Under the pieces are notes generated by a model, which was not told the origin of the DNA, did no database searches, and saw only the letters and a list, made by a program, of their open reading frames with translations. 47,013 nucleotides of DNA from an uncultured Bacilli bacterium (GTDB taxonomy: Bacteria > Bacillota_I > Bacilli_A > RFN20 > CAG-826): positions 1-47,013 of the forward strand of contig CANQQL010000003.1 of NCBI GenBank assembly GCA_947625975.1. The letters are read 5' to 3'. Position numbers and translations under genes: made by a program. How positions within the stretch are numbered: the stretch's first letter is position 1; each line of letters begins with the position of its first letter. Of the stretch, positions 1,806 through 35,303 are shown in pieces.

Positions 1806-2123
1806 ATGCAAAAATTAAAATGTAATGAAGAAGTATGTCGCAATAATTATTGTAAGCATTGTGTAAAAGATGTGATACAAATTTCTGAAGACGCTTATTG
1901 CAGATCGTTTGATAAAAAAACTGATAAAACCAGCAATCAAGCAAAGATTGAATTTGAATTTGCATGTGATACCGGTCTAGGAACCGAAAATGATATGCAT
2001 CATATTCTTTGTAATGAAGAAACCTGTAATTATTGGAATTTTGGAGAATGTAATGCTCACGAAATTCATGTTAACAATAAGGCTGTTGGGGCAAAATGTG
2101 TGACTTTTACACCAAAAAAATAG
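1806..2123 (+). CDS. Cys-rich protein with two DUF1540-like repeats
   Basis: Two C-x4-C-x2-N/W-x3-4-C-x4-I-x-I/V units; AAGGAG RBS; own terminator. Confidence 0.75.
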   Translation: MQKLKCNEEVCRNNYCKHCVKDVIQISEDAYCRSFDKKTDKTSNQAKIEFEFACDTGLGTENDMHHILCNEETCNYWNFGECNAHEIHVNNKAVGAKCVTFTPKK

Positions 2124-2975: not shown

Positions 2976-5900
2976 ATGTCTAACTTACTTACTCTATTAA
3001 AAGAATATCAAGCCATACAAAAATATATTAACGGAAATTGTAATGATTTCATTACAGATGATGTAATAGGAACAAGTCTTTTGGTATGCGCAAAATATAG
3101 TAATAGACCTGCGAAAATGGCGATAGTGGCATCTAATCTTTACACAGCACAGCGTATATATGATTTTATTTCAAATATAATAAGTGAAGAGAATTGTTTG
3201 TTTTTTCCGGTTGATGAAATGCTTAGAAATGATTCCTTGGCATGCTCTAAGGAGATGATTGCGCAAAGAATCTATATTTTAAATGAGTTAAACAAAAGAG
3301 AACATTACATTTTAGTAACACACACAAGTGCAGTTATGAAATATTTACCCTCGCCAAAATTATTTCTTGAGAATTGCCTAAATATTTCAGTTGGTAGTAA
3401 ATTAAATTTGACACAAACAAAAAATGCTCTTGTTCAAATGGGCTATTTAAATGTCCACAAAATAGACCATAGTTTACAATTTGCCAGTCGGGGTGATGTC
3501 CTTGATGTATTTTCCGTCAATTCCGAATATCCGATAAGAATTGAATTGTTTGATGATGAAGTGGAATCAATTAGATACTTTTCACTAGAGAATCAAAGCT
3601 CCTTTGAAGCGATAAATAGCATTACAATTTTGCCTGCTACCGAACTTTTGTTCGATGAAGATGAACAAAAAAATATAAGCAATAAAATACTTCACCAAGC
3701 AGAGTTAGAGGCAAGACAACTTAGTAACAATATTAGAAGTTGTTTCTTGGATAATCTCCGAAGCGTGGCGGAAGATATCACAATAAATAAAAACTTCGTT
3801 AAGACACAAAAGTATTATGGCTTTTTACAAGATAAACACTATTCCTTAATAGATTACTTAAAAAATGCAGAGATTATTTTTGCAAATGAGGAGCAAATTA
3901 GTTCTTTAAATAGGCTACTACTAGAAGAAGCAAAATCTTATGTAGCGGAAGAATATAAAAATGGTAATAGTTTAGTTTCTTTACTAATCTATCAAAATAT
4001 AGATGGGTTATTAAAAAATTGTAAAAACAAAACATATATTCACGAATTTGGTAATAAGAAAAATTCGGAAGTTTTGCAAATATCTTCTATTGCGGGTAGT
4101 GCAACTAATTTAAACCAAGCTTTCAACTTAATCAACAGTTATCTTAATATGGGGTATAAGATTGTTATAAGTCTCGATAATCAGCAACAGTTTGATTTAA
4201 TTTGTTCGTTACTTGACACAAACGAAATCGAATATGAAAAAGAAAAAAGTTTTAAAATACCTAACAAACAAATCGTACTTATCATTGATTTTCTCGATGA
4301 AGGTTTTGAATTAATTGAGGGGAAACTAGTTTTCTTAACTTCCAAAGAACTATTTAGTTTCAAGATTAAAAACTCGCGGTTTGTCAATAGATACAAAGAA
4401 GCAATTGCTTTAAAGTCGGAACAAGATTTAGAACCGGGTGATTATGTTGTTCACGAACAACATGGTGTCGGCAGATTTATTGATATTGTTACTTTGGAGC
4501 AAAATAATATGCATAAAGATTTTATACATATTCAATATGCAGGTACAGATGTTTTATATGTTCCTCTTGAAAAATTTCATTTAATAAAAAAATTTTCTGG
4601 TCGCGAAGGAGTAACACCAAAACTTAATAAATTAGGTTCAAAAGAATGGGAAAGAACTAAGAAAAAAATAAAAGAGCGAATTAATGATATGGCGGACAGA
4701 CTGTTTAAATTGTATTCTGATCGCGAACAAGTTCAAGGATTTGCTTTTCAAAAAGATGATGAAATACAGATGGAATTCGAACGTCAATTTCCTCATGTTT
4801 TAACTAAAGACCAAGAAATATGTTTAAAAGAAATAAAGCAGGATATGGAAAGTAGCAAGCCAATGGATCGCTTGCTTTGTGGCGATGTTGGATTTGGTAA
4901 GACCGAGTTAGCGTTTCGTGCAGCATTTAAAGCAATTTTAAGTGGAAAACAAGTTGCCATACTTTGCCCAACTACTTTACTAGCAAGACAACATTTTGAA
5001 AGAGCCAAAGAACGATTTGGAACATTTGATGTAAAAATTGCTATGTTTTCGCGTTTAGTGGATGAATCAAGGCAAAAATACTATAAACAAATTACAGAAA
5101 ATGGCGAAGCTCATTTGATTATTGGGACACACCGAATATTATCTAAAGAGATTAAATTTAATAATTTGGGTCTTTTAATAGTGGATGAAGAACAACGTTT
5201 TGGCGTTGAACAAAAAGAAAGAATAAAAGAATTAAAAACAAATATTGATGTATTAACACTCTCTGCCACCCCGATACCGCGCACATTGCAAATGTCGTTA
5301 CTGGGAATAAGATCATTATCACAAATTAATACTCCCCCCGAAAACAGAATCCCCATTCAAACATATGTTATGCCGCAAAAAGATGAGGTTGTTTTTGAAT
5401 TAATAGCCCGTGAATTATCGCGAAAAGGGCAAGTTTATTATTTGCATAACAATGTATCTACAATATATGGCAAAGCACAAAAAATTGAAAAGAATATAAA
5501 GGGTTGTCGAGTTGGTGTGGCGCATGGTCAGATGGATCGCGATAGCATAGAAGATATTATGTTAAATTTTTATAATGGTGACCTTGATGTTTTAGTGTGT
5601 ACATCAATCATTGAAACAGGAATCGATATTGCAAATGTTAATATGATAATAGTTGAAGATGCGGATAAATTTGGATTAGCACAATTGTATCAAATCAAGG
5701 GTCGTGTTGGCCGTGGAGACAAAATAGCTTATGCATATTTACTTTACAAGCCAAATAAAAATTTAAATGATAAAGCCCAAAAGCGCTTAAAAGCAATCAC
5801 TGATTTTACGGAACTTGGAAGCGGATATAAAATAGCTCAACGGGACCTATTAATTAGAGGAGCGGGAGATATTTTAGGCTCCGAACAGGCAGGCTTTATT

Positions 5901-6449
5901 GATACTGTGGGTATTGATATGTATATGTCGTTGTTACAAGAAACTATCAAAGAGAGAACTACGGGAATTATAAGCGACAAAAGAAATTCAAAAGGGACAG
6001 TTAATGTCGATGCATATTTACCAAGTGAATATGTTGATAAAATTGATAAAATAGATTTATATCAAGAAATCGATAATGTAAAATCTTTAAAGGAACTTGA
6101 TGAGTTAAAGAAGAAAGTTCGAGATGTTTATGGCCGTCTTCCAGATAGTGTAAATCTATTATTTGAAAAGCGAGAATTGCTGTTTGTAGTTAATAACGAT
6201 AATGCTTTTGATACATTAAGTGAACAAAATGATTATATAGATTTAATACTTTCAAAAGAATTTTCAAATATTGATAGCATAGGTGTATATTTATTTAAAC
6301 TACTCAGTATGTATTTAAAATATATAAAAGTAACATATCGTGATAAGCAAATAAGAATACGATTAAATAAAACTGATAAATGGTTTATGCAATTAAAAAC
6401 AATCGTTCAAATAATTTCCGATTTAAGAAAAGACCTCATAAAAGAATAA
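2976..6449 (+). CDS. mfd: Transcription-repair coupling factor
   Basis: UvrB-like RGDVLDVF, CarD-like VVHEQHGVG, GDVGFGKT, DEEQRFG, QIKGRVGR; 1157 aa. Confidence 0.97.
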   Translation: MSNLLTLLKEYQAIQKYINGNCNDFITDDVIGTSLLVCAKYSNRPAKMAIVASNLYTAQRIYDFISNIISEENCLFFPVDEMLRNDSLACSKEMIAQRIYILNELNKREHYILVTHTSAVMKYLPSPKLFLENCLNISVGSKLNLTQTKNALVQMGYLNVHKIDHSLQFASRGDVLDVFSVNSEYPIRIELFDDEVESIRYFSLENQSSFEAINSITILPATELLFDEDEQKNISNKILHQAELEARQLSNNIRSCFLDNLRSVAEDITINKNFVKTQKYYGFLQDKHYSLIDYLKNAEIIFANEEQISSLNRLLLEEAKSYVAEEYKNGNSLVSLLIYQNIDGLLKNCKNKTYIHEFGNKKNSEVLQISSIAGSATNLNQAFNLINSYLNMGYKIVISLDNQQQFDLICSLLDTNEIEYEKEKSFKIPNKQIVLIIDFLDEGFELIEGKLVFLTSKELFSFKIKNSRFVNRYKEAIALKSEQDLEPGDYVVHEQHGVGRFIDIVTLEQNNMHKDFIHIQYAGTDVLYVPLEKFHLIKKFSGREGVTPKLNKLGSKEWERTKKKIKERINDMADRLFKLYSDREQVQGFAFQKDDEIQMEFERQFPHVLTKDQEICLKEIKQDMESSKPMDRLLCGDVGFGKTELAFRAAFKAILSGKQVAILCPTTLLARQHFERAKERFGTFDVKIAMFSRLVDESRQKYYKQITENGEAHLIIGTHRILSKEIKFNNLGLLIVDEEQRFGVEQKERIKELKTNIDVLTLSATPIPRTLQMSLLGIRSLSQINTPPENRIPIQTYVMPQKDEVVFELIARELSRKGQVYYLHNNVSTIYGKAQKIEKNIKGCRVGVAHGQMDRDSIEDIMLNFYNGDLDVLVCTSIIETGIDIANVNMIIVEDADKFGLAQLYQIKGRVGRGDKIAYAYLLYKPNKNLNDKAQKRLKAITDFTELGSGYKIAQRDLLIRGAGDILGSEQAGFIDTVGIDMYMSLLQETIKERTTGIISDKRNSKGTVNVDAYLPSEYVDKIDKIDLYQEIDNVKSLKELDELKKKVRDVYGRLPDSVNLLFEKRELLFVVNNDNAFDTLSEQNDYIDLILSKEFSNIDSIGVYLFKLLSMYLKYIKVTYRDKQIRIRLNKTDKWFMQLKTIVQIISDLRKDLIKE

Positions 6450-6494: not shown

Positions 6495-7013
6495 ATGGAA
6501 CCATTGGGCGTTCTAAGAAGAATTGATGAATTAGGAAGGATTGTTATCCCCAAAGGGATAAGAAATAGATTAAAAATAAATGAAGGAGATCGGGTAGAAT
6601 TAATACTTGACAACGAATCAGCTTTAATTGTTAGAAAATATAGTTCCTTTCAAGGTACCGATGAAATAACAAAAAAACTTATTTTAGATTTGGAAAAAGA
6701 AATCAATTTACCGGTTTTGTTATGTAGCAACGAAAAAATATTGACATCATCTAGCGAAAAATATAATTATTTTGAAGCAGAGACTATTAGCCAAACTCTT
6801 TTTAATGCTTTAAATGAACGCAAAAACACTGCACTTTATGGGCAATCAATTGCTAAAGTTGGTGAAAATATGAATTTTGTTGTATATCCAATGGCAAAAA
6901 ATTCTGAATTGATTGGTGGTTTGATTATTTTAGGTGTAACTTCTGTTAATGACTATCAGAACAAGATAATTTTGATTTTCCGAAATATCGTCATGAGCAT
7001 GTTAAAAATATGA
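6495..7013 (+). CDS. spoVT: SpoVT-like transcription factor (AbrB N-terminal domain plus GAF-like C-terminal domain)
   Basis: GVLRRIDELGRIVIPKGIR AbrB motif; C-terminal part aligns by eye with the SpoVT GAF domain (VLLC...S..L...P....IGG.II); position after mfd as in B. subtilis; GAGGTG RBS before ATG 6495. Confidence 0.85.
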   Translation: MEPLGVLRRIDELGRIVIPKGIRNRLKINEGDRVELILDNESALIVRKYSSFQGTDEITKKLILDLEKEINLPVLLCSNEKILTSSSEKYNYFEAETISQTLFNALNERKNTALYGQSIAKVGENMNFVVYPMAKNSELIGGLIILGVTSVNDYQNKIILIFRNIVMSMLKI

Positions 7014-7019
7014 TATAAT
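7011..7019 (+). promoter_or_regulatory. Extended -10 sigmaA promoter for rqcP
   Basis: TGaTATAAT, 17 nt upstream of the GTG start. Confidence 0.6.
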
Positions 7020-7036
7020 TAATTTGGTGATATGGA

Positions 7037-7309
7037 GTGCGGATAGATAAGTATTTAAAATTAACCAGATTAGTAAAAAGAAGAATGGTAGCGAAAGAGA
7101 TTATTGAAGATGGAGTGATATATATTAACAATCATAAAGTTAAGCCATCAAAAGAGGTAAAAATTGGCGATATTGTAAAATTGACTTTAGGCCAACATCA
7201 ATTAACCATTAAAGTTTTAGCACTCAATACAGTTACCACTAAAGCTAATGCTGAAGAAATGTATGAAATTATTGAAGATAAAGTAATAACCCCCATAGAT
7301 GAAGCATAG
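7037..7309 (+). CDS. rqcP: S4-domain RNA-binding protein (YabO/RqcP, Hsp15 family)
   Basis: MRIDKYLK..RLVKRR..AK, KPSKEVKIGD; syntenic position of yabO. Confidence 0.88.
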   Translation: MRIDKYLKLTRLVKRRMVAKEIIEDGVIYINNHKVKPSKEVKIGDIVKLTLGQHQLTIKVLALNTVTTKANAEEMYEIIEDKVITPIDEA

Positions 7310-7312
7310 TAT
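7284..7312 (+). promoter_or_regulatory. sigmaE-like (mother cell) promoter for yabPQ
   Basis: TAATA(7284-7288)-N16-CATAGTAT(7305-7312) versus consensus ATa-N16-cATAcanT; yabPQ is sigmaE-controlled in B. subtilis. Confidence 0.65.
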
Positions 7313-7329
7313 CTAATGGGGTGTTTTTT
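7291..7329 (+). terminator. Terminator-like hairpin between rqcP and yabP
   Basis: CCCCATAGAT-N10-ATCT(A)ATGGGG followed by TGTTTTTT. Confidence 0.55.
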
Positions 7330-7608
7330 ATGGAAAATGAACAGACAAGGAATTTAATTGTTATTAAAGATCGTAAAACGTTAGATCTTGAAGGTATAAC
7401 TAAACTTGATAGTTTCGATTCAAAAGAGTTTTTACTTGATACGACTTTAGGATTTCTTCATGTTACAGGACAAGATTTGGAATTGGGCAATATGAATATG
7501 GAAAAAGGTTTAATAACAATTAAAGGTATGATTGATAGCGTCAGTTTTATGAACAAAGGTAAAACGGCTACAAGCAAAGAAAATATTTTTTCGAAATTGT
7601 TTAAATAA
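7330..7608 (+). CDS. yabP: Sporulation protein YabP
   Basis: DRKTLDLEGITKLDSFDSKEFLLDTTLGFLHVTGQDL matches the YabP/YqfC pattern; GGGGTG RBS. Confidence 0.9.
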   Translation: MENEQTRNLIVIKDRKTLDLEGITKLDSFDSKEFLLDTTLGFLHVTGQDLELGNMNMEKGLITIKGMIDSVSFMNKGKTATSKENIFSKLFK

Positions 7609-8009
7609 TGGATATTAAACAACAATTTCAAGTATTCCTAGGATCCATAGTTTTAGGAATGCTTTTTTTATGCTTGTGGTCATTGTTCAATGCCTTTTTT
7701 TATAAATTAAAAAGAAGTGTGGTCAGATTACCTTTTGAAACCCTATTCTTTATGTCGCTGGCATATCTGTATCATTTATTTTTAGTTGCAATTTGTGAAG
7801 GTGTTTTAAATATATTTTATCCATTAGCGCTGTTAATTGGAGCGGTCATCTATCAAAAATTTTATTCTCCACGTATCACACCTTATTTTAATAAACTGGC
7901 AACGAGTTTTTTTAATTTTTTCAAATCTCTATACAATAAACTAAAAAAACTTTATAATAAATTAAAACCAAAAAGGAGGAAAAAGCATGAAGTCAAAAAG
8001 AATACATAA
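7608..8009 (+). CDS. yabQ: Spore cortex biosynthesis protein YabQ-like
   Basis: TAATG coupling to yabP, three hydrophobic segments and a basic tail, synteny. Confidence 0.75.
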   Translation: MDIKQQFQVFLGSIVLGMLFLCLWSLFNAFFYKLKRSVVRLPFETLFFMSLAYLYHLFLVAICEGVLNIFYPLALLIGAVIYQKFYSPRITPYFNKLATSFFNFFKSLYNKLKKLYNKLKPKRRKKHEVKKNT

Positions 8010-8226
8010 TATTTTTTCTTTAGCAATTGCTGTCCTTTCCTTAACATTAGTAGTAACTATGGGCATCGTGCTGATAAATAAGCATCATCGTTACATTGCT
8101 TTAACGCAAGAAAAAGCAAAAATAGAACAAGAATTGGCAAACCCTGATGAAGAAGTATACGACGTATATGTCAAAGATAATTATACCGTGTACGACGAAA
8201 AAACAATTATAGAATATTCAAAGTAG
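7987..8226 (+). CDS. Short bitopic membrane protein, DivIC/FtsB-like septum formation initiator
   Basis: N-terminal TM helix plus short coiled coil; occupies the divIC position between yabQ and spoIIE; sequence similarity weak. Confidence 0.55.
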   Translation: MKSKRIHNIFSLAIAVLSLTLVVTMGIVLINKHHRYIALTQEKAKIEQELANPDEEVYDVYVKDNYTVYDEKTIIEYSK

Positions 8227-8243
8227 CGAAAGCTACTTTTTTT
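8220..8243 (+). terminator. Intrinsic terminator of the yabP-yabQ-divIC unit
   Basis: AAGTAGC-GAAA-GCTACTT followed by a T run. Confidence 0.85.
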
Positions 8244-8275
8244 CGACATTAAAATCCCCAATAGTCCATTAAGAT
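8242..8275 (+). promoter_or_regulatory. Spo0A box and long-spacer sigmaA promoter for spoIIE
   Basis: TTCGACA (8242-8248) is the reverse complement of the perfect 0A box TGTCGAA and overlaps a -35 TCGACA; N21; TAAGAT (8270-8275). Confidence 0.7.
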
Positions 8276-8292
8276 TGAGTTGAGGAAAATTT

Positions 8293-10422
8293 ATGGAAAA
8301 AGTAATTGAAAAATGGACATCGGTTTTTTTGTTTCTACTATCTTTATTATCAGTTTTGTTTAATCGATCTTTTTCGGTTAATCCTTTTTTACTAATAGCA
8401 TTGTATTTTTCTTTTTATAAAGGGTTAAAAAGCTATTTATTAAATTTTACCTCCATGCTGATATTATCTTTTGTTATTGAAAGATCATATGCCTTAGAAA
8501 TAGCAATAATCGGGATTTCTTTTTTGTTTATTACATCATTATTTTCTTATATGTTTAGAAAACCTGAGCAGAGACTATTTCCCCTATTGCTTTTAAACTT
8601 TTTTTGTTTTTTAGGCATTATAATAATAGATTTTTCCTTAGAAAATATAGTTTTGTTGATGATTAATACTCTACTTCAGCTTGTAATTATTAAAGCTTTG
8701 GAAGAATTTTGGGATTCACTCAATAGCATCGACGTGACTTGTTCAAATGTTAATAAGGCTCTTGTCTTAATGACCTTAGCGATAATCGGGACATTTCTAG
8801 AACCAATAGGTTTATTCACAATAAGATTTGTTTTACTTTTAGTAGCGTTAAAATTAAAAGATGAAGTAGGAATTTTATCTATATTTTTATCTTGTATTTA
8901 TTGTGTTTTGTTCTTAGACTATTCCTTTTTGACTTTAACTGCATTGTTTTTACCACTTGTTTTAGTATTCGTAATTCACAAATATGAAATTTTTGTTTAT
9001 CTTATTACCACAATAATTATGTTATTGTTATCACCAACGCCAATATATTTAAATATTTCATTGTATCTAACAATTTTGACTTCGATTATTGCAATTTCGA
9101 TAAACAAAACAAAAATACAGACTTTTTCTTCGTTATTTAAGCAAAATCGCTATAACTTATCAATAAGAGAACAAAATTATCTGGCTTACACCAATGGGCA
9201 AATTGAAGCATTAAAAAACTATATTTCTTTAATTGATACAACGAAGGAAGAAGAAATAAGAGATCCTTTTGAACAAGCAATTTTAAATATTAGCACTTCA
9301 ACTTGTGCACAATGTGAGCATTATCAATTTTGTAAATTAAAGCGAGATTTGCCAACTTTTTTTGATGAAAAAGTTACCTCCGGCAATCGTAAATTAATTA
9401 TGGAAACATGTATTACACCTTATAAACTAACTATGGCAATCGAGACATATTATAAGGTATACAAAAGCGAAAAACTTTATTATGCTAAATACTTAGATGC
9501 CAATAAGAGGTATAAATATTTAGTTAAATCAATCGAATCACCGCTAAAAAATTGTGCACTTAAACTTAATTATAAATTTCAAAACAATATTGAAAGAAAA
9601 ATCCTTGAATCTAATCTCCATTATTATAAATTTTATTTGCGGGAAAATGATTTGGTTGTGGAATTTAATATCGAAAATTTTGAAGAAAATTCTCAAGCGT
9701 TTGATGAATTTGTTAAGGAAAATCTTGAAGTTAACTATCAGAAGATAATTAAGCCACAAAATATTTTAACATCTACGATTACAGTTATTTATAAAGCCAT
9801 AGAGAAAGCTAAATATGATATGGGAGTAATCTCCAAAGCTCTTGTTCCACCATATAACGGAGATAATTACTTTGTTGATAATAAAGATGACTATTTGCTG
9901 GTGTGTTTGTGTGATGGTATGGGACATGGAGAGCAAGCGGAAGAGTGCTCTAAATATCTTTTAAGTGCGATACAAACGCATTTGAAACTATCTACAGGCT
10001 TTTCGGATATGGTCAATGATTTAAATAATATCTTATTAATGAAAAACATAAATGACTGTTATTCAACAATGGATTTATTTAAGTTGAATTTATCAACTTT
10101 AAATGGTACATTTGTCAAGGCGGGAGCGTTTATCTCGTATGTTATAAGAAATAGAGATATAATTCCAATAGAAAGACACAACCTGCCGTTAGGTATTGTT
10201 ACAGATTGTACATATAAAAGTTATAATTTTCAGTTTCAAAGTGGAGATATCCTAGTGATGCTAAGTGATGGAATTGGCGAAAGAGTGGAATTAGATAATA
10301 AGGTTCTCCTTGTTTCGGATGGAACAGATATGGGGAATTATGCACGAAACATTTTTAATATTCTAAACGATGAAAAAAACTTTAATGATGACTCTACTAT
10401 TATCACAATAAAGATAATATGA
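8293..10422 (+). CDS. spoIIE: Stage II sporulation protein E-like PP2C phosphatase
   Basis: About 270 aa multi-TM N-terminus, CxxC..C motif (CAQCEHYQFC), C-terminal PP2C motifs GDNY, CDGMGHG, LSDG, DDST; synteny between divIC and tilS. Confidence 0.88.
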   Translation: MEKVIEKWTSVFLFLLSLLSVLFNRSFSVNPFLLIALYFSFYKGLKSYLLNFTSMLILSFVIERSYALEIAIIGISFLFITSLFSYMFRKPEQRLFPLLLLNFFCFLGIIIIDFSLENIVLLMINTLLQLVIIKALEEFWDSLNSIDVTCSNVNKALVLMTLAIIGTFLEPIGLFTIRFVLLLVALKLKDEVGILSIFLSCIYCVLFLDYSFLTLTALFLPLVLVFVIHKYEIFVYLITTIIMLLLSPTPIYLNISLYLTILTSIIAISINKTKIQTFSSLFKQNRYNLSIREQNYLAYTNGQIEALKNYISLIDTTKEEEIRDPFEQAILNISTSTCAQCEHYQFCKLKRDLPTFFDEKVTSGNRKLIMETCITPYKLTMAIETYYKVYKSEKLYYAKYLDANKRYKYLVKSIESPLKNCALKLNYKFQNNIERKILESNLHYYKFYLRENDLVVEFNIENFEENSQAFDEFVKENLEVNYQKIIKPQNILTSTITVIYKAIEKAKYDMGVISKALVPPYNGDNYFVDNKDDYLLVCLCDGMGHGEQAEECSKYLLSAIQTHLKLSTGFSDMVNDLNNILLMKNINDCYSTMDLFKLNLSTLNGTFVKAGAFISYVIRNRDIIPIERHNLPLGIVTDCTYKSYNFQFQSGDILVMLSDGIGERVELDNKVLLVSDGTDMGNYARNIFNILNDEKNFNDDSTIITIKII

Positions 10423-10436
10423 TATGATAAATATCG

Positions 10437-11666
10437 GTGATTATTGTGCTTAATCTGGATTGTAATAAAAAATATCTTTTAGCTTGTTCTTTTGGACCAG
10501 ATTCCATGGCACTTTTTGATATGCTCTTAAAAAATAATTTTTATTTTGAAGTGGCCCATGTAAATTACCATAAAAGAGATGCTTCAAATTATGAGCAAGA
10601 GTCTTTAGCTAAATATTGCCAGCAAAAATCGATTAAATTTTATGTTTTAAATACTGATTTATTGCCGGATCATCGAGGAAATTTTCAAGCATGGGCAAGG
10701 GATGTACGTTATAAATTTTTTGCGGATTGTGTAAAACTTAATAATTTGGATATTGTTTTAACAGCTCATCATTTGGATGACTTGTTAGAAACTTATTTAA
10801 TGCAAGAAGAAAGGAATAGTGAAAAAAGTTTTTATGGCATAAGAGACTTAACAAATATTTATGACTGCCCTGTCGCGAGACCGCTTCTCAATTATACAAA
10901 AAGTGAGTTGTTAGAATACTGTAAAAGGAATCACATACCGTATTCCATTGATATCTCTAATCTAAGTGATAACTATACAAGAAATAAAATTCGACATCGC
11001 AAAATTGAAAATATGACAAAACAAGAAAAATTGGAACTTAAAGAAAAAATCGACCATAAAAATATGGAATTAAGTCAAACGAAACAGCGTTTAAAGAATT
11101 TTATGATCGAAGATAATTTATGTTTAGATGAAATTTTTAAATTAAACGGAAACGAATGGAATATCTTACTTAATTTGTTTTTAGAAGAATCTAAGATTTC
11201 CTGTCGAATATCTAAAAAGTTCAGTAAAGAAATGTTAAAAGCCATCAAAAGTGCAAAACCTAATATTGTATTTAGACTGAATAAAACAAAAAACATAGTT
11301 AAAGATTATAATTTTTTAAAAATTACCGATAATGAAAACGTAATAAACTATAGTTATATTATGGAGGTACCAACAATACTTGAAAATGAATATTTTTTCT
11401 TAGATTTAACAGAAAATTATGAACAATTTCGTATTAAAAATTCCGATTTTCCTCTTGTTATTAGAAACCAAAAGCAAGGTGATATGAGCTATATAAACAA
11501 TATTCCAAAGAAAGTTTCTAGATTATTTATGGATTGGAAAATGCCACACGATTTACGAAAACGATGGCCACTAATTTTCAATAAAAATAATAAGCTTGTA
11601 TATATAATCCGCTACTACGGTCCGGAGTCACTAAAGGCTAACCAAAAATTTATTGTAAAAAAGTAA
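10437..11666 (+). CDS. tilS: tRNA(Ile)-lysidine synthetase
   Basis: SFGPDSMAL PP-loop variant, HVNYHKR, AHHLDD..ET, RPLL, RNKIRH; upstream of ftsH. Confidence 0.95.
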   Translation: MIIVLNLDCNKKYLLACSFGPDSMALFDMLLKNNFYFEVAHVNYHKRDASNYEQESLAKYCQQKSIKFYVLNTDLLPDHRGNFQAWARDVRYKFFADCVKLNNLDIVLTAHHLDDLLETYLMQEERNSEKSFYGIRDLTNIYDCPVARPLLNYTKSELLEYCKRNHIPYSIDISNLSDNYTRNKIRHRKIENMTKQEKLELKEKIDHKNMELSQTKQRLKNFMIEDNLCLDEIFKLNGNEWNILLNLFLEESKISCRISKKFSKEMLKAIKSAKPNIVFRLNKTKNIVKDYNFLKITDNENVINYSYIMEVPTILENEYFFLDLTENYEQFRIKNSDFPLVIRNQKQGDMSYINNIPKKVSRLFMDWKMPHDLRKRWPLIFNKNNKLVYIIRYYGPESLKANQKFIVKK

Positions 11667-11759: not shown

Positions 11760-13730
11760 ATGAAAAAAAACAAGAATATATTCAGTTTTATATTTCCCTA
11801 TATTTTTGTTGGTTTAGTAATCGCGATGTTAGCAGTTATCATCACTCTTAACTTATCCGGACCAACACAAATTTTTAGAGGCGATTTGTTAGATTTTGTG
11901 GAAAACAAAGAAATCATCACTTTAGTAGAAACCCCAAAAGAAACAGTTACGACCATAACCGGAACTTATAAAAATGAAGAAGGTAGAACTTTATCTTTCG
12001 AATGCAATTTTGCAAATGATGACGTTTTTATCGAAGAGCTCCATACTAAAATAGATGAGAGAACATATACAGATGATAACGGTGAAGTGCATTCATATTA
12101 TAATGGCAAATATAGTGCGGTTGATCCATATCAAACATCATGGCTAGAAAGCTGGGGACCAACAATTTTGCTAATTGTGGGAACAGGAGTAGTTTGCATA
12201 TTGATGTTTAGAGGGATGAGCAACTCTGTTAATAACTCAAATAATAAAGCTATGGAATTTAACAAATCGCGTGCTAGACTTGTTGATTCTTCAAAAGTTA
12301 GATTTTCTGATGTTGCAGGGGCAGATGAAGAAAAGGCTGAGTTAATTGAATTAGTTGATTATTTAAAAAATCCCGGAAAATATTCTGAATTTGGTGCAAA
12401 AATGCCAAAGGGTGTTTTATTAGTTGGCCCACCCGGAACAGGTAAAACGTTATTAGCAAAAGCAGTTGCTGGAGAAGCCGGTGTTCCATTTTTCTCGATT
12501 TCCGGATCGGATTTTGTAGAAATGTTTGTCGGTGTCGGAGCAGGACGTGTAAGAGATATGTTTAAAAATGCTAAAAAGAATGCTCCATGTTTAGTATTTA
12601 TTGATGAAATTGATGCAGTTGGCCGACAAAGAGGTGCTGGTATGGGTGGCGGAAATGATGAACGCGAACAAACTCTTAACCAGTTATTGGTCGAAATGGA
12701 TGGATTTTCAGATAACTCTGGCATAATTGTTATTGCTGCAACAAACCGTGATGATGTTTTAGATCCTGCATTGTTGCGTGCTGGCCGTTTTGATCGTCAA
12801 ATTACAGTTGACTTGCCAGACCGCAAAGGGCGAGAAGCTATTTTGAAAGTACATGCGCGTAATAAGAAGATTGATCCGGAAGTTAATTTTGATGATTTGG
12901 CTAAAAGAACCGTGGGATTTTCAGGCGCAGATTTAGAGAATGTTTTAAATGAAGCTGCTATTTTAGCAGTTCGTGAACATAAGAAAATTATCGGTATTAA
13001 AGAAATTGATGAGGCAATCGATCGACGTTATGTCGGTCCAGCAAAATCATCAAGAACAATGGATCCATTTGAAAAGAAAACAATTGCCTATCATGAAGCT
13101 GGTCATGCTGTAATTGGTTTATTCTTAGAATATTCGGATAAAGTGCAAAAAATTACAATTATTCCTCGTGGCAGAACCGGTGGTCATGTTCGTATGGCTC
13201 CAGAGACTGATCATTATAATTTAACTAAGAATCAACTTATTGCACGAATAGTAGGATATTTGGGTGGACGTACTTCCGAAGAGATATTCTTTAAAGATGT
13301 TTCGACAGGTGCTAGCAATGATATTGAAATGGCTACAAAGATTGCCCGTCGAATGGTAACAGAATTTGGTATGTCTCCACTTGGACCCATTCAATATGAA
13401 ACTGACACCGGTTCTGTATTCTTAGGTCGTGATTATACAAATACACAAAAGAATTTTTCGACTCAAATAGCTTATGAAATAGACACTCAAGTACGAAAGA
13501 TAATTGATGAAGCTCACATGAAGGCAAGAGAGATTCTCGAAGCACATATTGAAGATGTTAAGTTAATTGCCGAAACATTGCTAAAGCAAGAAACTATAAC
13601 TGCTGAAGAAATTACTTATTTGCTTGAACATCGTCATTTAAAGTCAGAGGAGGAAAATAATGCTCCTACTGAGACATCTGAACAAACTAAAGAAACAAAA
13701 ACAGATGAGAATGGAGAAGGAAAGGAATAA
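11760..13730 (+). CDS. ftsH: ATP-dependent zinc metalloprotease FtsH
   Basis: Two TMs, [34 protein letters not shown] zinc motif. Confidence 0.98.
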
Positions 13731-32933: not shown

Positions 32934-34205
32934 ATGGAAGAAGTAATTAGAATAAAAGGACAAAAATTATTAGAAGGAACAATCCATATATCCGGAAGTA
33001 AAAATTTATGCGTGGCTCTAATTCCGGCTTCGATTTTGGCAAGAGATGTCGTGGTTATTCACAACATACCACCCATAAGTGACGTGTATAGTTTAGTGGA
33101 AATATTAGAACAATTAGGGATATGTGTAGAGTATCATCAAGACACTTTAATTATTGATTCCAGCAATGTAAAATATCACGATTTAGATATGCCGGCGATG
33201 GAGAGATTGCGGGCTTCCTATTATTTTTATTCAGTTTTACTTGGAATGTATCACAAGGTTACTGCAAGTGGTATTGGTGGTTGCCGTCTTGGAGAAAGGC
33301 CAATCGATTTGCATATAAAGGCTTTTGAACAATTGGGCACAAAATTCCAAAAACAAGAAAATAAATATATTTTTGATGGAGAAAATTTACACGCAGGTCA
33401 TATAATTTTTGATAAAATTTCAGTGGGCGCTACAATAAATGCAATTTTATTGGCCATTCAAATAAAAGGAAAAACAATAATTGAAAATGCGGCAACCGAA
33501 CCAGAAATTACCGAACTTTGCAAATTTCTGTCAAAAATGGGTGCGACAATTGAAGGCCTTGGCACGGATTGTATCGTAATAAAAGGTGGAAAAACCTTAC
33601 ACGGAACAACATTTTATAATATCCCTGATCGTATTGAAGTGGGAACATATGCCCTTATCGGCGCCGCTACGGCTAAAAATTTAATTATCAAAAATGTTAT
33701 TAAAGAGCATATTCAAGCACTTCTGGATTTGTTTGATATTTTAGAAGTAGATTATTCAATTAAAGAAAACGAACTACAGGTTAGAAAAAGCAAAATTAAA
33801 AAAGGTATAATCGTTTTAACTGCTCCTTATCCTGGATTTCCTACTGATTTGCAGCAACCATTAACTTCTTTTTTAGCGGTAAATGAAGGAACGTCCGTTA
33901 TCATTGAAAGTATATATACAAATCGCTTTGCACACATTAAGGAATTAAACGAGATGGGTGCGAATATAAATGTAACAAATATGAATATAATTATTCATGG
34001 CGTAAAAGAACTACGAGGATTAGTTGTAAATGGTAAAGATTTACGAGGTGCAGCATCTTTAGTCATTGCCGGACTTATAGCAAAGGGTGAAACAGTAGTT
34101 AGAGGTTTGGAATACATTAATCGAGGATATGAAAATATGATAAAAAAATTAAGAAAAGTACATGCAAATATAGAATTATGCATCGAAGATTTTGGAGATA
34201 ATTAA
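32934..34205 (+). CDS. murA: UDP-N-acetylglucosamine 1-carboxyvinyltransferase
   Basis: SGSKN, RASY, GGCRLGERPIDLH (catalytic Cys), SVGAT, PDRIE, YPGFPTDLQ, DLRGAASL, RGY. Confidence 0.96.
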   Translation: MEEVIRIKGQKLLEGTIHISGSKNLCVALIPASILARDVVVIHNIPPISDVYSLVEILEQLGICVEYHQDTLIIDSSNVKYHDLDMPAMERLRASYYFYSVLLGMYHKVTASGIGGCRLGERPIDLHIKAFEQLGTKFQKQENKYIFDGENLHAGHIIFDKISVGATINAILLAIQIKGKTIIENAATEPEITELCKFLSKMGATIEGLGTDCIVIKGGKTLHGTTFYNIPDRIEVGTYALIGAATAKNLIIKNVIKEHIQALLDLFDILEVDYSIKENELQVRKSKIKKGIIVLTAPYPGFPTDLQQPLTSFLAVNEGTSVIIESIYTNRFAHIKELNEMGANINVTNMNIIIHGVKELRGLVVNGKDLRGAASLVIAGLIAKGETVVRGLEYINRGYENMIKKLRKVHANIELCIEDFGDN

Positions 34206-34206
34206 C

Positions 34207-34869
34207 ATGAAAAGGCTTATAGGTTTAGTGGTTCTCTTTCCTTTGCTACTTACTATGTTAACCTCATGTAATAAATCAACATATTACATGCCTTTAGGAG
34301 ATTTTTCAGATGAGCTAATTGCGCAAATGAACGAAGGACTTAATCGAAAATGTATTGATTATTTTGCCCGAGAAAAAATGCAATCTGGTGAACTATTTAA
34401 AATTGTTGATTCTAATGCCTCTTATTTTTATGAAGGAAAGCAATATCCATTCTTTGGAGTTGCAGAAAAAGCAAATTTGTTTATTTTAAAAATAGGTTTA
34501 AATGATTTTTTGCCATCTATGACCATTGATGTATCAAACAATGTGCTTGACTATGATCGTGATTTGCTTGAAAAGCAATTAGAAATCTTTCAATATCATA
34601 TTTACCACACAATTGAAGGAATTAATGAAATAAATAGTAAGGCCGAAATTGCAATCTTGTCTGCCTATAATGATTACTTGTTTGAAGAACCAGAGCAAAA
34701 ACTTTTTAATAGCATAGTATGGCAAATCAATAATTCCTTGATGGAAATGCAAGACATTAAAAATGTAAAATATTTTTCATTGGTAGATATAAACGAACAA
34801 ATTTATCAAAACAACGCGTTGAATATTAATGAATATATTGTAAAACAATTAGAAGGTTATCGCTTATGA
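34207..34869 (+). CDS. Lipoprotein with a degenerate SGNH/GDSL-hydrolase-like fold
   Basis: Lipobox LTSC; PLGDF at block I, IGLND at block III, INSKAEIAILSAYN; no DxxH. Confidence 0.6.
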   Translation: MKRLIGLVVLFPLLLTMLTSCNKSTYYMPLGDFSDELIAQMNEGLNRKCIDYFAREKMQSGELFKIVDSNASYFYEGKQYPFFGVAEKANLFILKIGLNDFLPSMTIDVSNNVLDYDRDLLEKQLEIFQYHIYHTIEGINEINSKAEIAILSAYNDYLFEEPEQKLFNSIVWQINNSLMEMQDIKNVKYFSLVDINEQIYQNNALNINEYIVKQLEGYRL

Positions 34870-35303
34870 ACGATGGTGAAAGAAATAAATTAATCATACA
34901 TACGTCTTGGCTTTTCGAAGCATTACACAGTCAGTATCGCTCGATATTCAATGATCTGAAAATATGCTCGAATATTGGCATCTATAAGACTTCTAAAATG
35001 TTTTTGACATTTTCGCAAAATCTAAAAATGGCTTCAATTTTGCTTACACAAGCCAGTAGAAATTTTACCATGATTATCAAAAGTGCAAATCTAAACGGAA
35101 AACAAATCCAAAATATTTATAATTTATATACAAAAAGAAGCTTTTTTCAAGAACGAAAAGCATATGAAATGTTTAATAATTTACAATATGATAAAAGCAT
35201 TGCAAGCGCTAGTGAGTATAAGCAAATATATGCAAAGATGTATAATTTAAATGGTTTATATAATCAAATAGATAATAATTTTTTTCAAATGAAAGATTTT
35301 TAA
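34866..35303 (+). CDS. Hypothetical protein (145 aa)
   Basis: ATGA overlap with the upstream gene; no family recognised. Confidence 0.65.
   Translation: MNDGERNKLIIHTSWLFEALHSQYRSIFNDLKICSNIGIYKTSKMFLTFSQNLKMASILLTQASRNFTMIIKSANLNGKQIQNIYNLYTKRSFFQERKAYEMFNNLQYDKSIASASEYKQIYAKMYNLNGLYNQIDNNFFQMKDF

What the first reader, a model, noticed from the sequence alone, without database searches (positions are those of the whole stretch)
6495..10422. Intact condensed sporulation block (spoVT-yabP-yabQ-divIC-spoIIE) in a streamlined genome
Seen: all ORFs are intact. Neighbours of this locus in B. subtilis (fin, yabM, yabN, yabR, yabS, yabT, hprT) are absent from the block, yet the sporulation-specific genes are kept. 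Established: SpoIIE activates sigmaF, SpoVT modulates the sigmaG regulon, and YabP/YabQ act in cortex and coat formation. Inference: selective retention points to a functional, minimal endospore programme in a lineage whose highly diverged proteins resemble those of reduced-genome Bacilli. SpoIIE (709 aa) is shorter than the B. subtilis protein.
Basis: partly seen in the sequence, partly recalled or inferred. Interest (0 to 1): 0.65.

Follow-up and report, generated by a model that had tools for sequence, protein, structure and literature searches.

The report
Conserved sporulation gene block, reduced programme
This is a real, intact set of spore-formation genes that a whole group of small-genome, uncultured gut or rumen Bacilli keeps under strong selection; the arrangement and the stripped-down sporulation gene set behind it are already described for this branch of bacteria, so it is a solid but fairly ordinary find.

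Summary
The block is not special to this genome. All six congeners and three more distant relatives have the same arrangement, and two other families of the order share its spoVT-to-spoIIE core. dN/dS is 0.0-0.17, like the housekeeping neighbours. The SpoIIE metal-binding motifs and a Spo0A box before spoIIE are invariant in seven species. Elsewhere the 1.27-Mb, 89%-complete MAG has spo0A, spoIVB, spoIIGA-sigE-sigG, sigK, spoIVFA/FB-like genes, spoIVA, spoVIF, yunB and a lone spoIIIAH. The spoIIAA-spoIIAB-sigF-spoVA cluster, which encodes SpoIIE's substrate, is missing from the assembly. All congeners have it, and its housekeeping neighbours (ftsK, folD, mnmA, dtd) are missing too, so this is almost certainly an assembly gap. 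No spoIID, spoIIP, spoIIR or spoIIIAA/AE was detected in the 26 genomes searched (own, six congeners, 19 others of the order), and no alpha/beta SASP in the genus. The programme is therefore selected for and even more reduced than the published Erysipelotrichia type, but true endospore formation is unproven. Reduced sporulation sets in these lineages are already published. Interest is moderate to low.

The parts
2976..6449 (+). mfd (transcription-repair coupling factor). This is the upstream anchor of the block and the housekeeping control for the rate tests.
   Evidence: 1157-aa ORF. It is 65-79% identical in congeners. dN/dS is 0.035-0.067 in the G000-G005, G000-G002, G005-G002 and G006-G003 pairs (0.119 against the saturated G004).
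6495..7013 (+). spoVT. It encodes an AbrB-type DNA-binding domain plus a GAF-like C-domain and is a regulator of late forespore genes.
   Evidence: PF04014 scores 43.7 bits and PF15714 scores 20.8 bits. TIGR02851 is the best hit at 81 bits, below its cut-off. The alignment to 2W1T covers residues 2-148, E 2.8e-19. Start 6495 is conserved in congeners behind a GAGGTG site. dN/dS is 0.04-0.09.
7037..7309 (+). yabO/rqcP-like S4-domain protein. It is a housekeeping gene, not sporulation-specific.
   Evidence: PF01479 S4 scores 40.6 bits and the protein is Hsp15-like. It is present in five of the six congeners in the CDS table (G004's copy was not recovered by my crude caller) and in two other families of the order. 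It is called (PF01479) in two of the three more distant relatives; no S4 gene is listed in the third (L070).
7330..7608 (+). yabP. The ORF is open from GTG 7321; ATG 7330 is the likely start.
   Evidence: TIGR02892 scores 81.1 against a cut-off of 75.4, and PF07873 scores 57.3 bits. PDB 2KS0 matches at E 2.2e-9. The 92-aa gene call in three near-identical ENA contigs supports the 7330 start. dN/dS is 0-0.07.
7608..8009 (+). yabQ, a membrane protein. Its start overlaps the yabP stop by 1 nt.
   Evidence: TIGR02893 scores 55.3 against a cut-off of 32, and PF09578 scores 31.7 against 27. dN/dS is 0.06-0.14.
7987..8226 (+). 79-aa bitopic protein at the DivIC position: a basic N-terminus, one TM helix, a short coiled coil and a conserved C-terminal YD.Y..DNYTVYDEKTIIEY motif. 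It overlaps yabQ by 23 nt.
   Evidence: No DivIC Pfam hit and no PDB hit. It is conserved in six congeners at 46-71% identity with 25 invariant positions. dN/dS is 0.02-0.17 in the same four pairs (0.232 against G004). The G023 gene at the same position is PF04977-positive. hhalign to that gene gives only a weak match in the C-terminal motif, E 0.024.
8223..8243 (+). Intrinsic-terminator-like hairpin GTAGC-GAAA-GCTAC followed by T7. It overlaps the divIC stop codon.
   Evidence: Sequence read. The hairpin is conserved, with compensatory changes of the stem, in all seven species. The consensus scan missed it because the stem is short.
8242..8275 (+). spoIIE promoter region: Spo0A box TTCGACA (8242-8248, also a -35-like TCGACA), a 21-nt spacer and TAAGAT (8270-8275). 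The GAGG ribosome site is at 8282-8285.
   Evidence: The stretch ACTTTTTTTCGACA is invariant in seven species, while the spacer sequence is not conserved. A long-spacer sigmaA promoter with an overlapping 0A box is the known B. subtilis spoIIE architecture (from my own knowledge; the first-stage note e1-5243226 made the same point).
8293..10422 (+). spoIIE: a polytopic membrane domain (about residues 1-270), a central domain and a C-terminal PP2C phosphatase domain (about 516-709).
   Evidence: PF07228 scores 88.5 bits. TIGR02865 scores 124 bits and covers model positions 346-709. The only PDB hits are B. subtilis SpoIIE 5MQH, 3T91 and 5UCG. The N-terminal 270 residues contain many hydrophobic segments, and the motifs NGDNY, LCDGMGHG, SDG[IL]GE and DDSTII are invariant in seven species. 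dN/dS is 0.055-0.115.
10437..11666 (+). tilS (tRNA lysidine synthetase). This is the downstream anchor. It is followed directly by ftsH (11760-13730), with no hprT between them.
   Evidence: TIGR02432 scores 165.8 against a cut-off of 93.6. ORFs are listed.

Best explanation
The block is the clade-typical, vertically inherited sporulation locus of a small-genome lineage of Bacilli allied to the Erysipelotrichales. It is a working part of a strongly reduced, Erysipelotrichia-type sporulation programme.

Proposed mechanism (steps marked shown or inferred):
1. Spo0A~P binds the conserved TTCGACA box and switches on spoIIE from a long-spacer promoter. The conservation is shown; the binding is inferred.
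2. Membrane-bound SpoIIE, whose four PP2C metal-binding motifs are intact, dephosphorylates SpoIIAA~P. SpoIIAA then takes SpoIIAB off sigmaF in the forespore. This is inferred from orthology; the substrate operon is seen only in congeners.
3. The cascade continues through SpoIIGA/sigmaE, sigmaG (modulated by SpoVT), and SpoIVB, SpoIVFA/FB and sigmaK. All of these genes are present.
4. YabP and YabQ act with SpoIVA, SpoVIF, YunB and SpoVD/SpoVE-type enzymes in cortex and coat assembly. This is inferred from orthology.
5. yabO/rqcP and the mini-DivIC are general-purpose passengers of the same transcription unit.

The missing spoIIAA-spoIIAB-sigF-spoVA cluster lies in an unassembled stretch next to the start of contig C2. 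It is not a loss.
For: Identity of the genes.

Conservation of the whole block:
- It is present in all six congeners. SpoIIE is 45-70% identical with full-length frames of 712-715 aa.
- It is present in three more distant relatives with 55-57% Mfd identity.
- Its spoVT-to-spoIIE core is present in two other families of the order.

Purifying selection:
- dN/dS is 0.0-0.07 in the unsaturated pair G006/G003 (dS 0.08-0.48) and 0.04-0.17 in the G000-G005, G000-G002 and G005-G002 pairs (up to 0.26 against the saturated G004). These values equal those of mfd, tilS and ftsH.
- dN on the branch leading to G000 is 0.04-0.14 for the sporulation genes and 0.05-0.16 for the housekeeping neighbours (my arithmetic).
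- The PP2C domain is the most constrained part of SpoIIE (38% invariant columns against 16% in the membrane part), and all metal motifs are invariant.
- There is a phylogenetic footprint of the 0A box.

Rest of the programme in G000:
- spo0A, 254 bits against a cut-off of 200.
- SpoIVB, 316 against 305. SigE and SigG are best hits. SigK scores 292 against 252 and keeps a pro-sequence.
- SpoIIGA, PF03419, 35 against 28. SpoIIIAH, 37 against 30.6. YunB, 77 against 25.
- SpoIVA, 596 against 460, in the der-spoIVA-hbs context.
- SpoVIF, 92 against 27. An M50 SpoIVFB-type protease behind minCD and a SpoIVFA-like gene.
- SpoVD- and SpoVE-type genes.

Co-distribution: SpoIIE, SpoIIAB and SpoIVA are present in the same genomes and absent together from all nine other genera of the family.

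Assembly gap:
- All six congeners and three further congeneric contigs carry folD-dacF-spoIIAA-spoIIAB-sigF-spoVAC-spoVAD-spoVAE-gerA-like-rarA-dtd-mnmA.
- G000 lacks not only the sporulation genes but also ftsK, folD, rarA, dtd and mnmA.
- G000 contig C2 is syntenic with the congener contig from dapA to RNase J and ends 2.2 kb later.
- The MAG is 89% complete, and the species was assembled at about 3x coverage.

Precedent: spore-forming Erysipelotrichia keep only SpoIIQ/SpoIIIAH of the SpoIIIA complex, and C. innocuum lacks spoIIR and SASPs (bioRxiv 10.1101/2022.02.25.481979).
Against: - SpoIIE's substrate and sigmaF are not in this assembly, and the gap could not be closed.
- spoIID, spoIIP, spoIIR, spoIIIAA and spoIIIAE gave no hit at E<=1e-3 (spoIIIAE at E<=1e-5) in any of 26 genomes. 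A Pfam scan of 64 N-terminally anchored ORFs of G000 found none of SpoIID, SpoIIP or SpoIIR. Galperin et al. call SpoIID and SpoIIP indispensable.
- No alpha/beta SASP was found in the genus.
- SpoVT and SpoIIE score far below NCBIfam's equivalog cut-offs.
- dS is saturated in comparisons that involve G000 itself, so a very recent relaxation in this one species cannot be excluded.
- No member of the lineage is cultured, and nobody has seen spores.
Confidence: 0.68

Rival explanations
1. The programme is retained and selected but no longer builds a classical endospore. Without the engulfment hydrolases SpoIID and SpoIIP, without SpoIIR, SpoIIIAA-AG and SASPs, the sigma cascade and SpoIIE could drive a modified differentiation. 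Examples would be a weakly resistant resting cell or an intracellular-offspring-like process.
For: None of the 26 genomes searched has detectable spoIID, spoIIP, spoIIR, spoIIIAA or spoIIIAE, and the genus has no PF00269 SASP. The spoIID model is sensitive: it matches distant homologues in four non-Firmicute control genomes. Yet the regulators and SpoIVA, YabP/Q and SpoVA are under purifying selection. PMC10868615 treats spoIID as the critical missing gene in related orders.
Against: SpoVAC/D/E (dipicolinate uptake), a GerA-type receptor, SpoIVA, SpoVIF, YunB, YabP/Q and SpoVD/E-type genes make sense mainly for a cortex- and coat-bearing dormant spore. Spore-forming Erysipelotrichia already tolerate loss of spoIIR, SASPs and seven spoIIIA genes. 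HMM sensitivity is demonstrably poor here: NCBIfam missed SpoIIGA and SpoIVFB, which Pfam, motifs and synteny recover.
Confidence: 0.2
2. This particular species has really lost the spoIIA-spoVA cluster and is asporogenous. On this reading the block in the window is a relic that has not yet decayed.
For: There is no spoIIAA, spoIIAB, sigF, spoVAC, spoVAD or spoVAE in 1.27 Mb. Sporulation has been lost repeatedly in this family and order: nine of ten genera in the family lack it, and G016 has a split spoIVA and a truncated spoIIE.
Against: The absence extends to at least 20 kb of neighbours, including near-universal genes (ftsK, folD, mnmA, dtd, rarA). This fits a missing contig, not a deletion. 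Every other sporulation gene examined in G000 is intact, and the G000 branch shows no excess dN. All six congeners keep the cluster.
Confidence: 0.08
3. The programme only looks minimal. spoIID, spoIIP, spoIIR and SpoIIQ exist but have diverged beyond the reach of sequence HMMs in this fast-evolving lineage.
For: SpoIIGA and SpoIVFB gave no NCBIfam hit although Pfam, catalytic motifs (DTGN; HELFH and NLLPIYPLDGG) and synteny identify them. SpoIIE and SpoVT score at a quarter to a third of their cut-offs. PMC10868615 notes faster evolutionary rates in these orders.
Against: Even the most diverged recognised proteins still score E<1e-8. The SpoIID model reaches cyanobacteria and Bacteroides in the controls but finds nothing in 26 genomes. 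The gene after murA, where spoIID sits in B. subtilis, has no SpoIID domain. A Pfam scan at E<=0.01 (E<=0.1 for the first ten) of the N-anchored ORFs of G000 was negative.
Confidence: 0.25

Closest known systems
Bacillus subtilis mfd-fin-spoVT-yabM-yabN-yabO-yabP-yabQ-divIC-yabR-(tRNAs)-spoIIE-yabS-yabT-tilS-hprT-ftsH region
   Same: The retained genes have the same order and strand. spoIIE has a long-spacer promoter with an overlapping Spo0A box. yabP and yabQ are translationally coupled. SpoVT has two domains. SpoIIE has its membrane, central and PP2C parts.
   Different: fin, yabM, yabN, yabR, the tRNA genes, yabS, yabT and hprT are absent. SpoIIE has 709 aa rather than 827. The DivIC-position protein has 79 aa rather than 125 and does not match the DivIC model. 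The B. subtilis gene order and protein lengths are from my own knowledge.
Streamlined sporulation gene set of spore-forming Erysipelotrichia ([Clostridium] innocuum, Erysipelatoclostridium ramosum; Galperin et al. 2022, bioRxiv 10.1101/2022.02.25.481979)
   Same: Only spoIIIAH survives of the spoIIIA operon; here it lies directly after efp. SpoIVFB is kept. As in C. innocuum, spoIIR and alpha/beta SASPs are missing. The genome is a Bacilli-related lineage labelled Erysipelotrichales by NCBI.
   Different: This genome keeps yabQ and spoVT; yabQ is reported missing in both of those species and spoVT in E. ramosum. It also has a SpoIVFA-like gene, reported absent there. spoIID and spoIIP are undetectable here, whereas that survey calls them indispensable. 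The genome is 1.3-1.4 Mb against 3.3-4.7 Mb.
Predicted sporulators among the uncultured orders RFN20, RF39 and ML615J-28 (Microb Genom 2024, PMC10868615)
   Same: These are small genomes known only from metagenomes. They show a mosaic of families and genera with and without sporulation genes. spoIID is reported missing in RFN20 (CAG-631, CAG-449) and in ML615J-28. That paper concludes a reduced, possibly impaired sporulation.
   Different: That study worked at family level with KEGG orthologues and did not describe this locus. The exact GTDB order and family of this genome could not be read from the tools. This genome has a sortase, which the paper says RFN20 and ML615J-28 lack.
SpoIIE PP2C phosphatase domain of B. 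subtilis (PDB 5MQH, 3T91, 5UCG)
   Same: These are the only PDB relatives found (E 2.5e-16 to 1.1e-15). The DGMG.G and SDG motifs align, and upstream GD and downstream DD motifs are present.
   Different: Sequence identity is low over a 130-residue core. Activity on SpoIIAA~P was not tested.

Membership tests
SpoIIE (stage II sporulation protein E; TIGR02865 / PF07228) | C-terminal PP2C domain with the metal-binding aspartates | tested here: met
   PF07228 scores 88.5 bits. The protein aligns to 5MQH and 3T91. NGDNY, DGMGHG, SDG[IL]GE and DDSTII are invariant in seven species.
SpoIIE (stage II sporulation protein E; TIGR02865 / PF07228) | N-terminal polytopic membrane domain plus a central regulatory domain | tested here: met
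   A Kyte-Doolittle scan finds overlapping hydrophobic segments (roughly 8-10 helices, my estimate) in residues 1-270. The TIGR02865 alignment covers model positions 346-709, which includes the central domain.
SpoIIE (stage II sporulation protein E; TIGR02865 / PF07228) | Score above NCBIfam's equivalog cut-off | tested here: not met
   124 bits against 490.8. The same holds throughout this fast-evolving clade, so orthology rests on synteny, architecture and best-hit status.
SpoIIE (stage II sporulation protein E; TIGR02865 / PF07228) | Partner genes spoIIAA, spoIIAB and sigF in the same genome | tested here: inconclusive
   They are absent from the G000 assembly and present in all six congeners. 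The absence coincides with missing housekeeping neighbours, which points to an assembly gap.
SpoVT (TIGR02851) | AbrB-type swapped-hairpin N-domain plus a GAF-like C-domain | tested here: met
   PF04014 scores 43.7 bits and PF15714 scores 20.8 bits, below its cut-off. The alignment to the full-length SpoVT structure 2W1T covers residues 2-148, whereas AbrB structures match only residues 1-50. The equivalog cut-off is not reached: 81 against 236.
YabP (TIGR02892) and YabQ (TIGR02893) | Score above the curated cut-off, and an adjacent yabP-yabQ pair | tested here: met
   81.1 against 75.4 and 55.3 against 32. The two genes overlap by 1 nt.
DivIC/FtsB (PF04977) | Match to the family model | tested here: not met
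   There is no hit at E<=1 for the 79-aa ORF. There is no hit at E<=0.05 anywhere in G000; weak hits in relatives fall on a roughly 120-aa coiled-coil gene that, going by its G000 counterpart near recU-ponA, looks like gpsB (my inference). The profile search against PDB was negative.
DivIC/FtsB (PF04977) | Bitopic protein (N-in TM helix, coiled coil, short C-terminal beta region) encoded after yabQ | tested here: met
   The architecture is read from the sequence and from the alignment of six sequences. The G023 gene at the same position passes PF04977 at 33.6 bits. hhalign to that gene is weak, E 0.024, but in register.
Endospore-former genomic signature (Galperin et al. 2012 and 2022) | spo0A plus the four sporulation sigma factors | tested here: inconclusive
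   spo0A, sigE, sigG and sigK are present. sigF is not in the assembly but is present in all congeners.
Endospore-former genomic signature (Galperin et al. 2012 and 2022) | Engulfment hydrolases SpoIID and SpoIIP | tested here: not met
   There is no hit at E<=1e-3 in 26 genomes. There is no Pfam hit among 64 N-anchored ORFs of G000.
Endospore-former genomic signature (Galperin et al. 2012 and 2022) | SpoIIQ-SpoIIIAH pore | tested here: inconclusive
   SpoIIIAH is present at C56:2213-2701, PF12685, 37.1 bits against 30.6. No convincing SpoIIQ was found: one M23 protein is SpoIVFA-like, and the other lies in a conjugative-element-like region.
Endospore-former genomic signature (Galperin et al. 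2012 and 2022) | SpoIVA, SpoIVB and SpoVA; dipicolinate synthase; alpha/beta SASP | tested here: inconclusive
   SpoIVA scores 596 against 460 and SpoIVB 316 against 305. SpoVAC/D/E are seen only in congeners. SASP is absent from the genus.

The most novel reading that the evidence does not exclude
A whole order of small-genome Bacilli forms resistant endospores with the smallest gene set yet seen. On this reading the set lacks the SpoIID/SpoIIP engulfment hydrolases, SpoIIR and SpoIIIAA-AG, and in this genus it also lacks alpha/beta SASPs. It keeps Spo0A, SpoIIE, the four sigma factors, SpoIIGA, SpoIVB/FA/FB, SpoIVA, SpoVIF, YabP/Q, YunB, SpoIIIAH and SpoVA. That would overturn the view that SpoIID and SpoIIP are indispensable. 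It would also define a natural near-minimal sporulation programme in a genome of about 1.4 Mb.
Probability: 0.3. Interest if true: 0.6.

Novelty: new member of a known kind. Interest (0 to 1): 0.3.

Why it matters
For gut and rumen ecology it matters whether these abundant, uncultured, small-genome Bacilli can spread between hosts as spores. This locus and its partners show that one genus of an otherwise asporogenous family keeps the pathway under selection.

For sporulation biology, the lineage is a natural experiment on how few genes the process needs. It apparently lacks SpoIID, SpoIIP, SpoIIR and SASPs.

The general picture is already published: reduced sporulation sets in Erysipelotrichia, and repeated loss in the related uncultured orders. 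This finding therefore refines a known story and does not open a new one.

Tried and rejected
1. Closing the gap.
   - I searched for the species' own SpoVAD among relatives of the congener protein and read the contigs of the three nearest clusters.
   - None shares DNA with G000 except through ordinary 74% orthology in the dapA to RNase J stretch. They therefore belong to other species.
   - Walking along the 50-kb Logan contig showed where G000's contig C2 stops, but did not bridge the gap.
Laying reads on the congener operon and looking for resistant-fraction data were therefore impossible.
3. I first took a 930-aa congener gene matching C17 for a contig-end marker. It is only a domain paralogue inside C17.
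4. A regex for alpha/beta SASP motifs and one for SpoIIID found nothing. phmmer with YabP found no YqfC paralogue.
5. I first read the 180-aa degenerate-M23 protein on C40 as SpoIIQ. Its position between minD and an M50 protease makes it SpoIVFA-like instead.
6. The 292-aa M23 protein on C23 sits among conjugation-type genes, so I rejected it as SpoIIQ.
7. The lipoprotein after murA (window 34192-34869), where spoIID lies in B. subtilis, has no SpoIID domain.
8. GTDB order and family names could not be obtained. A paper search for the names of the related MAGs found nothing.
9. Sigma-F/G/E-type promoter motifs before spoVT and yabP are conserved in part, but I did not find them convincing enough to claim.
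10. dpaA and dpaB were looked for next to asd and dapF on C1 and not found there. No genome-wide test was left.

Full report
**The observation**

The window is contig C3 of a 1,270,261-bp, 66-contig assembly with 31% G+C. It is estimated to be 89% complete and 0.2% contaminated. Between mfd (2976-6449) and tilS (10437-11666) / ftsH (11760-13730) lie six tightly packed, same-strand ORFs.

- **spoVT** (6495-7013) has an AbrB-type N-domain. It aligns over both domains to the B. subtilis SpoVT structure 2W1T, whereas AbrB structures match only its first 50 residues.
- **An S4-domain gene** (7037-7309) of the yabO/rqcP type follows.
- **yabP and yabQ** both pass NCBIfam's curated cut-offs.
- **spoIIE** (8293-10422, 709 aa) has a PP2C domain whose only relatives in the PDB are the B. 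subtilis SpoIIE phosphatase structures.
- SpoVT and SpoIIE are clear best hits but score far below the equivalog cut-offs: 81 against 236 bits and 124 against 491 bits.
- **The 79-aa ORF at the divIC position** matches no DivIC model, neither alone nor in a genome-wide scan, and its profile finds nothing relevant in the PDB. It is a bitopic protein with a short coiled coil and a strongly conserved C-terminal motif. In a same-order genome (G023) the gene in the identical place after yabQ does pass the DivIC model. Profile comparison with that gene is weak but in register. 'divIC' is therefore a positional call only.
- fin, yabM, yabN, yabR, yabS, yabT and hprT are indeed absent from the block.

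**The block belongs to the clade, not to this genome**

- The same order, pth-mfd-spoVT-yabO-yabP-yabQ-(79 aa)-spoIIE-tilS, is found in all six congeners held by the genome tool.
- It is also found in three more distant relatives whose Mfd is only 55-57% identical. These include a 672-kb NCBI contig; one of the three (L070) lists no S4/yabO gene.
- Its spoVT-to-spoIIE core is present in two other families of the order.
- SpoIIE is 703-729 aa throughout the close clade. The 709-aa length is therefore normal here and not a truncation.
- The nearest named records are MAGs labelled 'Erysipelotrichales bacterium'.

**Selection**

- Pairwise Nei-Gojobori dN/dS for spoVT, yabO, yabP, yabQ, the 79-aa gene and spoIIE is 0.04-0.17 in the G000-G005, G000-G002 and G005-G002 pairs. 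dS is saturated in these comparisons.
- In the unsaturated pair G006/G003 (dS 0.08-0.48) it is 0.0-0.07.
- These values cannot be told apart from mfd (0.035-0.067), tilS (0.056-0.20) and ftsH (0.065-0.136) in the same pairs.
- From the same numbers, dN on the branch separating G000 from its two nearest congeners is 0.04-0.14 for the sporulation genes and 0.05-0.16 for the housekeeping neighbours. This species shows no sign of relaxed constraint.
- Within SpoIIE the PP2C domain is the most constrained part. The four metal-binding motifs (NGDNY, LCDGMGHG, SDG[IL]GE, DDSTII) are invariant in seven species.
- Upstream of spoIIE, a terminator hairpin that varies by compensatory changes is followed by an invariant ACTTTTTTTCGACA. 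This contains a Spo0A box that doubles as a -35. A non-conserved 21-nt spacer and TAAGAT/TAAAAT follow. This is the known spoIIE promoter architecture. It agrees with the first-stage note e1-5243226, which I tested here by phylogenetic footprinting.

**The rest of the programme in this genome**

Present:
- spo0A, 254 bits against a cut-off of 200, preceded by spoIVB, 316 against 305.
- ftsA-ftsZ-spoIIGA-sigE-sigG-sepF. SpoIIGA is recognised only by Pfam and its DTGN motif.
- A pro-sigmaK gene, 292 against 252.
- minC-minD followed by a SpoIVFA-like protein (TM helix plus degenerate M23 domain) and an M50 protease with HELFH and NLLPIYPLDGG motifs.
- der-spoVIF-spoIVA-hbs.
- yunB.
- SpoVD- and SpoVE-type genes in the division cluster.
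- spoIIIAH alone directly after efp.

This last feature is exactly the pattern published for spore-forming Erysipelotrichia. They keep only SpoIIQ and SpoIIIAH of the nine-gene complex (bioRxiv 10.1101/2022.02.25.481979).

**What is missing, and why**

Only four sigma-70-family loci exist (sigA, sigE, sigG, sigK). There is no sigF, spoIIAA, spoIIAB, spoVAC, spoVAD or spoVAE. That would leave SpoIIE without its substrate. However:

- All six congeners carry dacF-spoIIAA-spoIIAB-sigF-spoVAC-spoVAD-spoVAE-gerA-like.
- In five independent congeneric contigs (L020, L021, L048, L051, L061) this cluster is embedded among folD, rsmF, rarA, dtd and mnmA; ftsK, RNase J and dapA were seen further upstream in two of them.
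- G000 lacks every one of these neighbours, including ftsK/spoIIIE, folD, dtd and mnmA.
- Its contig C2 runs in synteny with the congener contig from dapA to RNase J at 74% DNA identity and ends 2.2 kb later.
- The species was assembled at about 3x coverage in the ENA samples that hold it.

An unassembled stretch of at least 20 kb is much the most economical reading.

**Phyletic pattern**

- Across the 26 genomes searched (G000, its six congeners and 19 others), SpoIIE, SpoIIAB and SpoIVA occur together. They are found in the seven genomes of this genus and in five or six other families of the order.
- They are absent together from all nine other genera of the same family, whose genomes are 0.4-1.8 Mb.
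- One genome (G016) shows decay in progress: a split spoIVA, a 304-aa SpoIIE remnant and no SpoIIAB.
- This matches the 'multiple independent losses' described for the uncultured orders around the Erysipelotrichales (PMC10868615).

**How minimal is it?**

- No genome of the 26 has a hit at E<=1e-3 (spoIIIAE at E<=1e-5) to the models for spoIID, spoIIP, spoIIR, spoIIIAA or spoIIIAE.
- The genus has no alpha/beta SASP, although four other genera of the order do.
- NCBIfam missed SpoIIGA and SpoIVFB here, so I distrusted these negatives. I scanned 64 N-terminally anchored ORFs of G000 against Pfam, and again found no SpoIID, SpoIIP or SpoIIR domain.
- The gene after murA, where spoIID lies in B. 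subtilis, is not SpoIID.
- The SpoIID model is sensitive enough to ring in cyanobacterial, Thermus, Deinococcus and Bacteroides controls. Its absence is therefore probably real. For SpoIIP, and especially SpoIIR, divergence beyond detection remains possible.
- Loss of spoIIR and of SASPs has a precedent in the spore-former C. innocuum. Loss of both SpoIID and SpoIIP has none, and Galperin et al. call them indispensable.
- PMC10868615 already noted the lack of spoIID in RFN20 and ML615J-28 families and predicted reduced or impaired sporulation.

**Verdict**

Its inference of function is supported by conservation, selection and the presence of the regulatory backbone. Three things temper it:
1. 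The condensed block is an ordinary clade-wide arrangement that also carries non-sporulation genes.
2. The direct partners of SpoIIE are not in this assembly, most likely because of an assembly gap.
3. Several morphogenetic genes thought essential are undetectable across the order, so real endospore formation remains an inference.

Reduced sporulation sets in Erysipelotrichia, and predicted sporulation in the related uncultured orders, are already in the literature. I therefore class this as a new member of a known kind, with moderate to low interest. The most novel reading still open is natural sporulation without SpoIID/SpoIIP in a genome of about 1.4 Mb. It deserves a fold-level search and a resistant-fraction experiment.

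**Not tested**

The GTDB order and family names could not be obtained.

Noticed in passing
G016 (same order, other family): C34:1076-2538 and C25:9996-10742: The sporulation set is caught in decay. spoIVA is split into two frames, SpoIIE is reduced to a 304-aa frame and there is no SpoIIAB, yet an alpha/beta SASP gene is still present.
   Followed up: partly
G000 contig C56:1455-2701: efp is followed directly by spoIIIAH alone; spoIIIAA-AG are gone. This is the same remnant as published for spore-forming Erysipelotrichia.
   Followed up: yes
G000 contig C40:3916-6471: The order is minC-minD, then a 180-aa protein with a TM helix and a degenerate M23 domain (SpoIVFA-like), then an M50 protease (SpoIVFB-like). 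Galperin et al. report SpoIVFA as absent from Erysipelotrichia.
   Followed up: partly
G000 contig C2:1-2271: The contig ends 2.2 kb past RNase J, after two membrane-protein genes. In a congener the same stretch continues to ftsK and, 12 kb on, to the spoIIA-spoVA cluster. The assembly also lacks ftsK, folD, mnmA, dtd and rarA.
   Followed up: yes
window 1806-2123: Another first-stage note calls this 105-aa Cys-rich ORF DUF1540. It gave no DUF1540 hit in Pfam at E<=1 and nothing in NCBIfam.
   Followed up: partly
window 34192-35303: The lipoprotein and the 145-aa ORF coupled to murA have no recognisable family; the only hit is a weak GDSL-lipase match at E 0.002. The position corresponds to spoIID in B. 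subtilis, but there is no SpoIID domain.
   Followed up: partly
G000 contig C32:3438-3917: A 159-aa protein extremely rich in cysteine (CC and CCCC runs) with a DUF11 domain lies 7 kb from spoIVA. It may be a spore-surface or envelope protein.
   Followed up: no
G000 contig C23:4664-9908: A conjugative-element-like stretch. It holds an M23 peptidoglycan hydrolase with an intact HxH motif next to an 836-aa VirB4-like ATPase and membrane proteins.
   Followed up: no
G000 contig C23:12262-12921: A sortase (PF04203, 59.5 bits) is present. PMC10868615 states that the orders RFN20 and ML615J-28 lack srtA/B, so the order assignment of this genome stays open.
   Followed up: no
G000 contig C1:45512-49167: A glycogen synthesis operon, which I read as glgC-glgD-glgA by eye from the translations (no family search), sits just upstream of asd-dapF. 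No dpaA or dpaB lies beside asd, unlike in B. subtilis.
   Followed up: no
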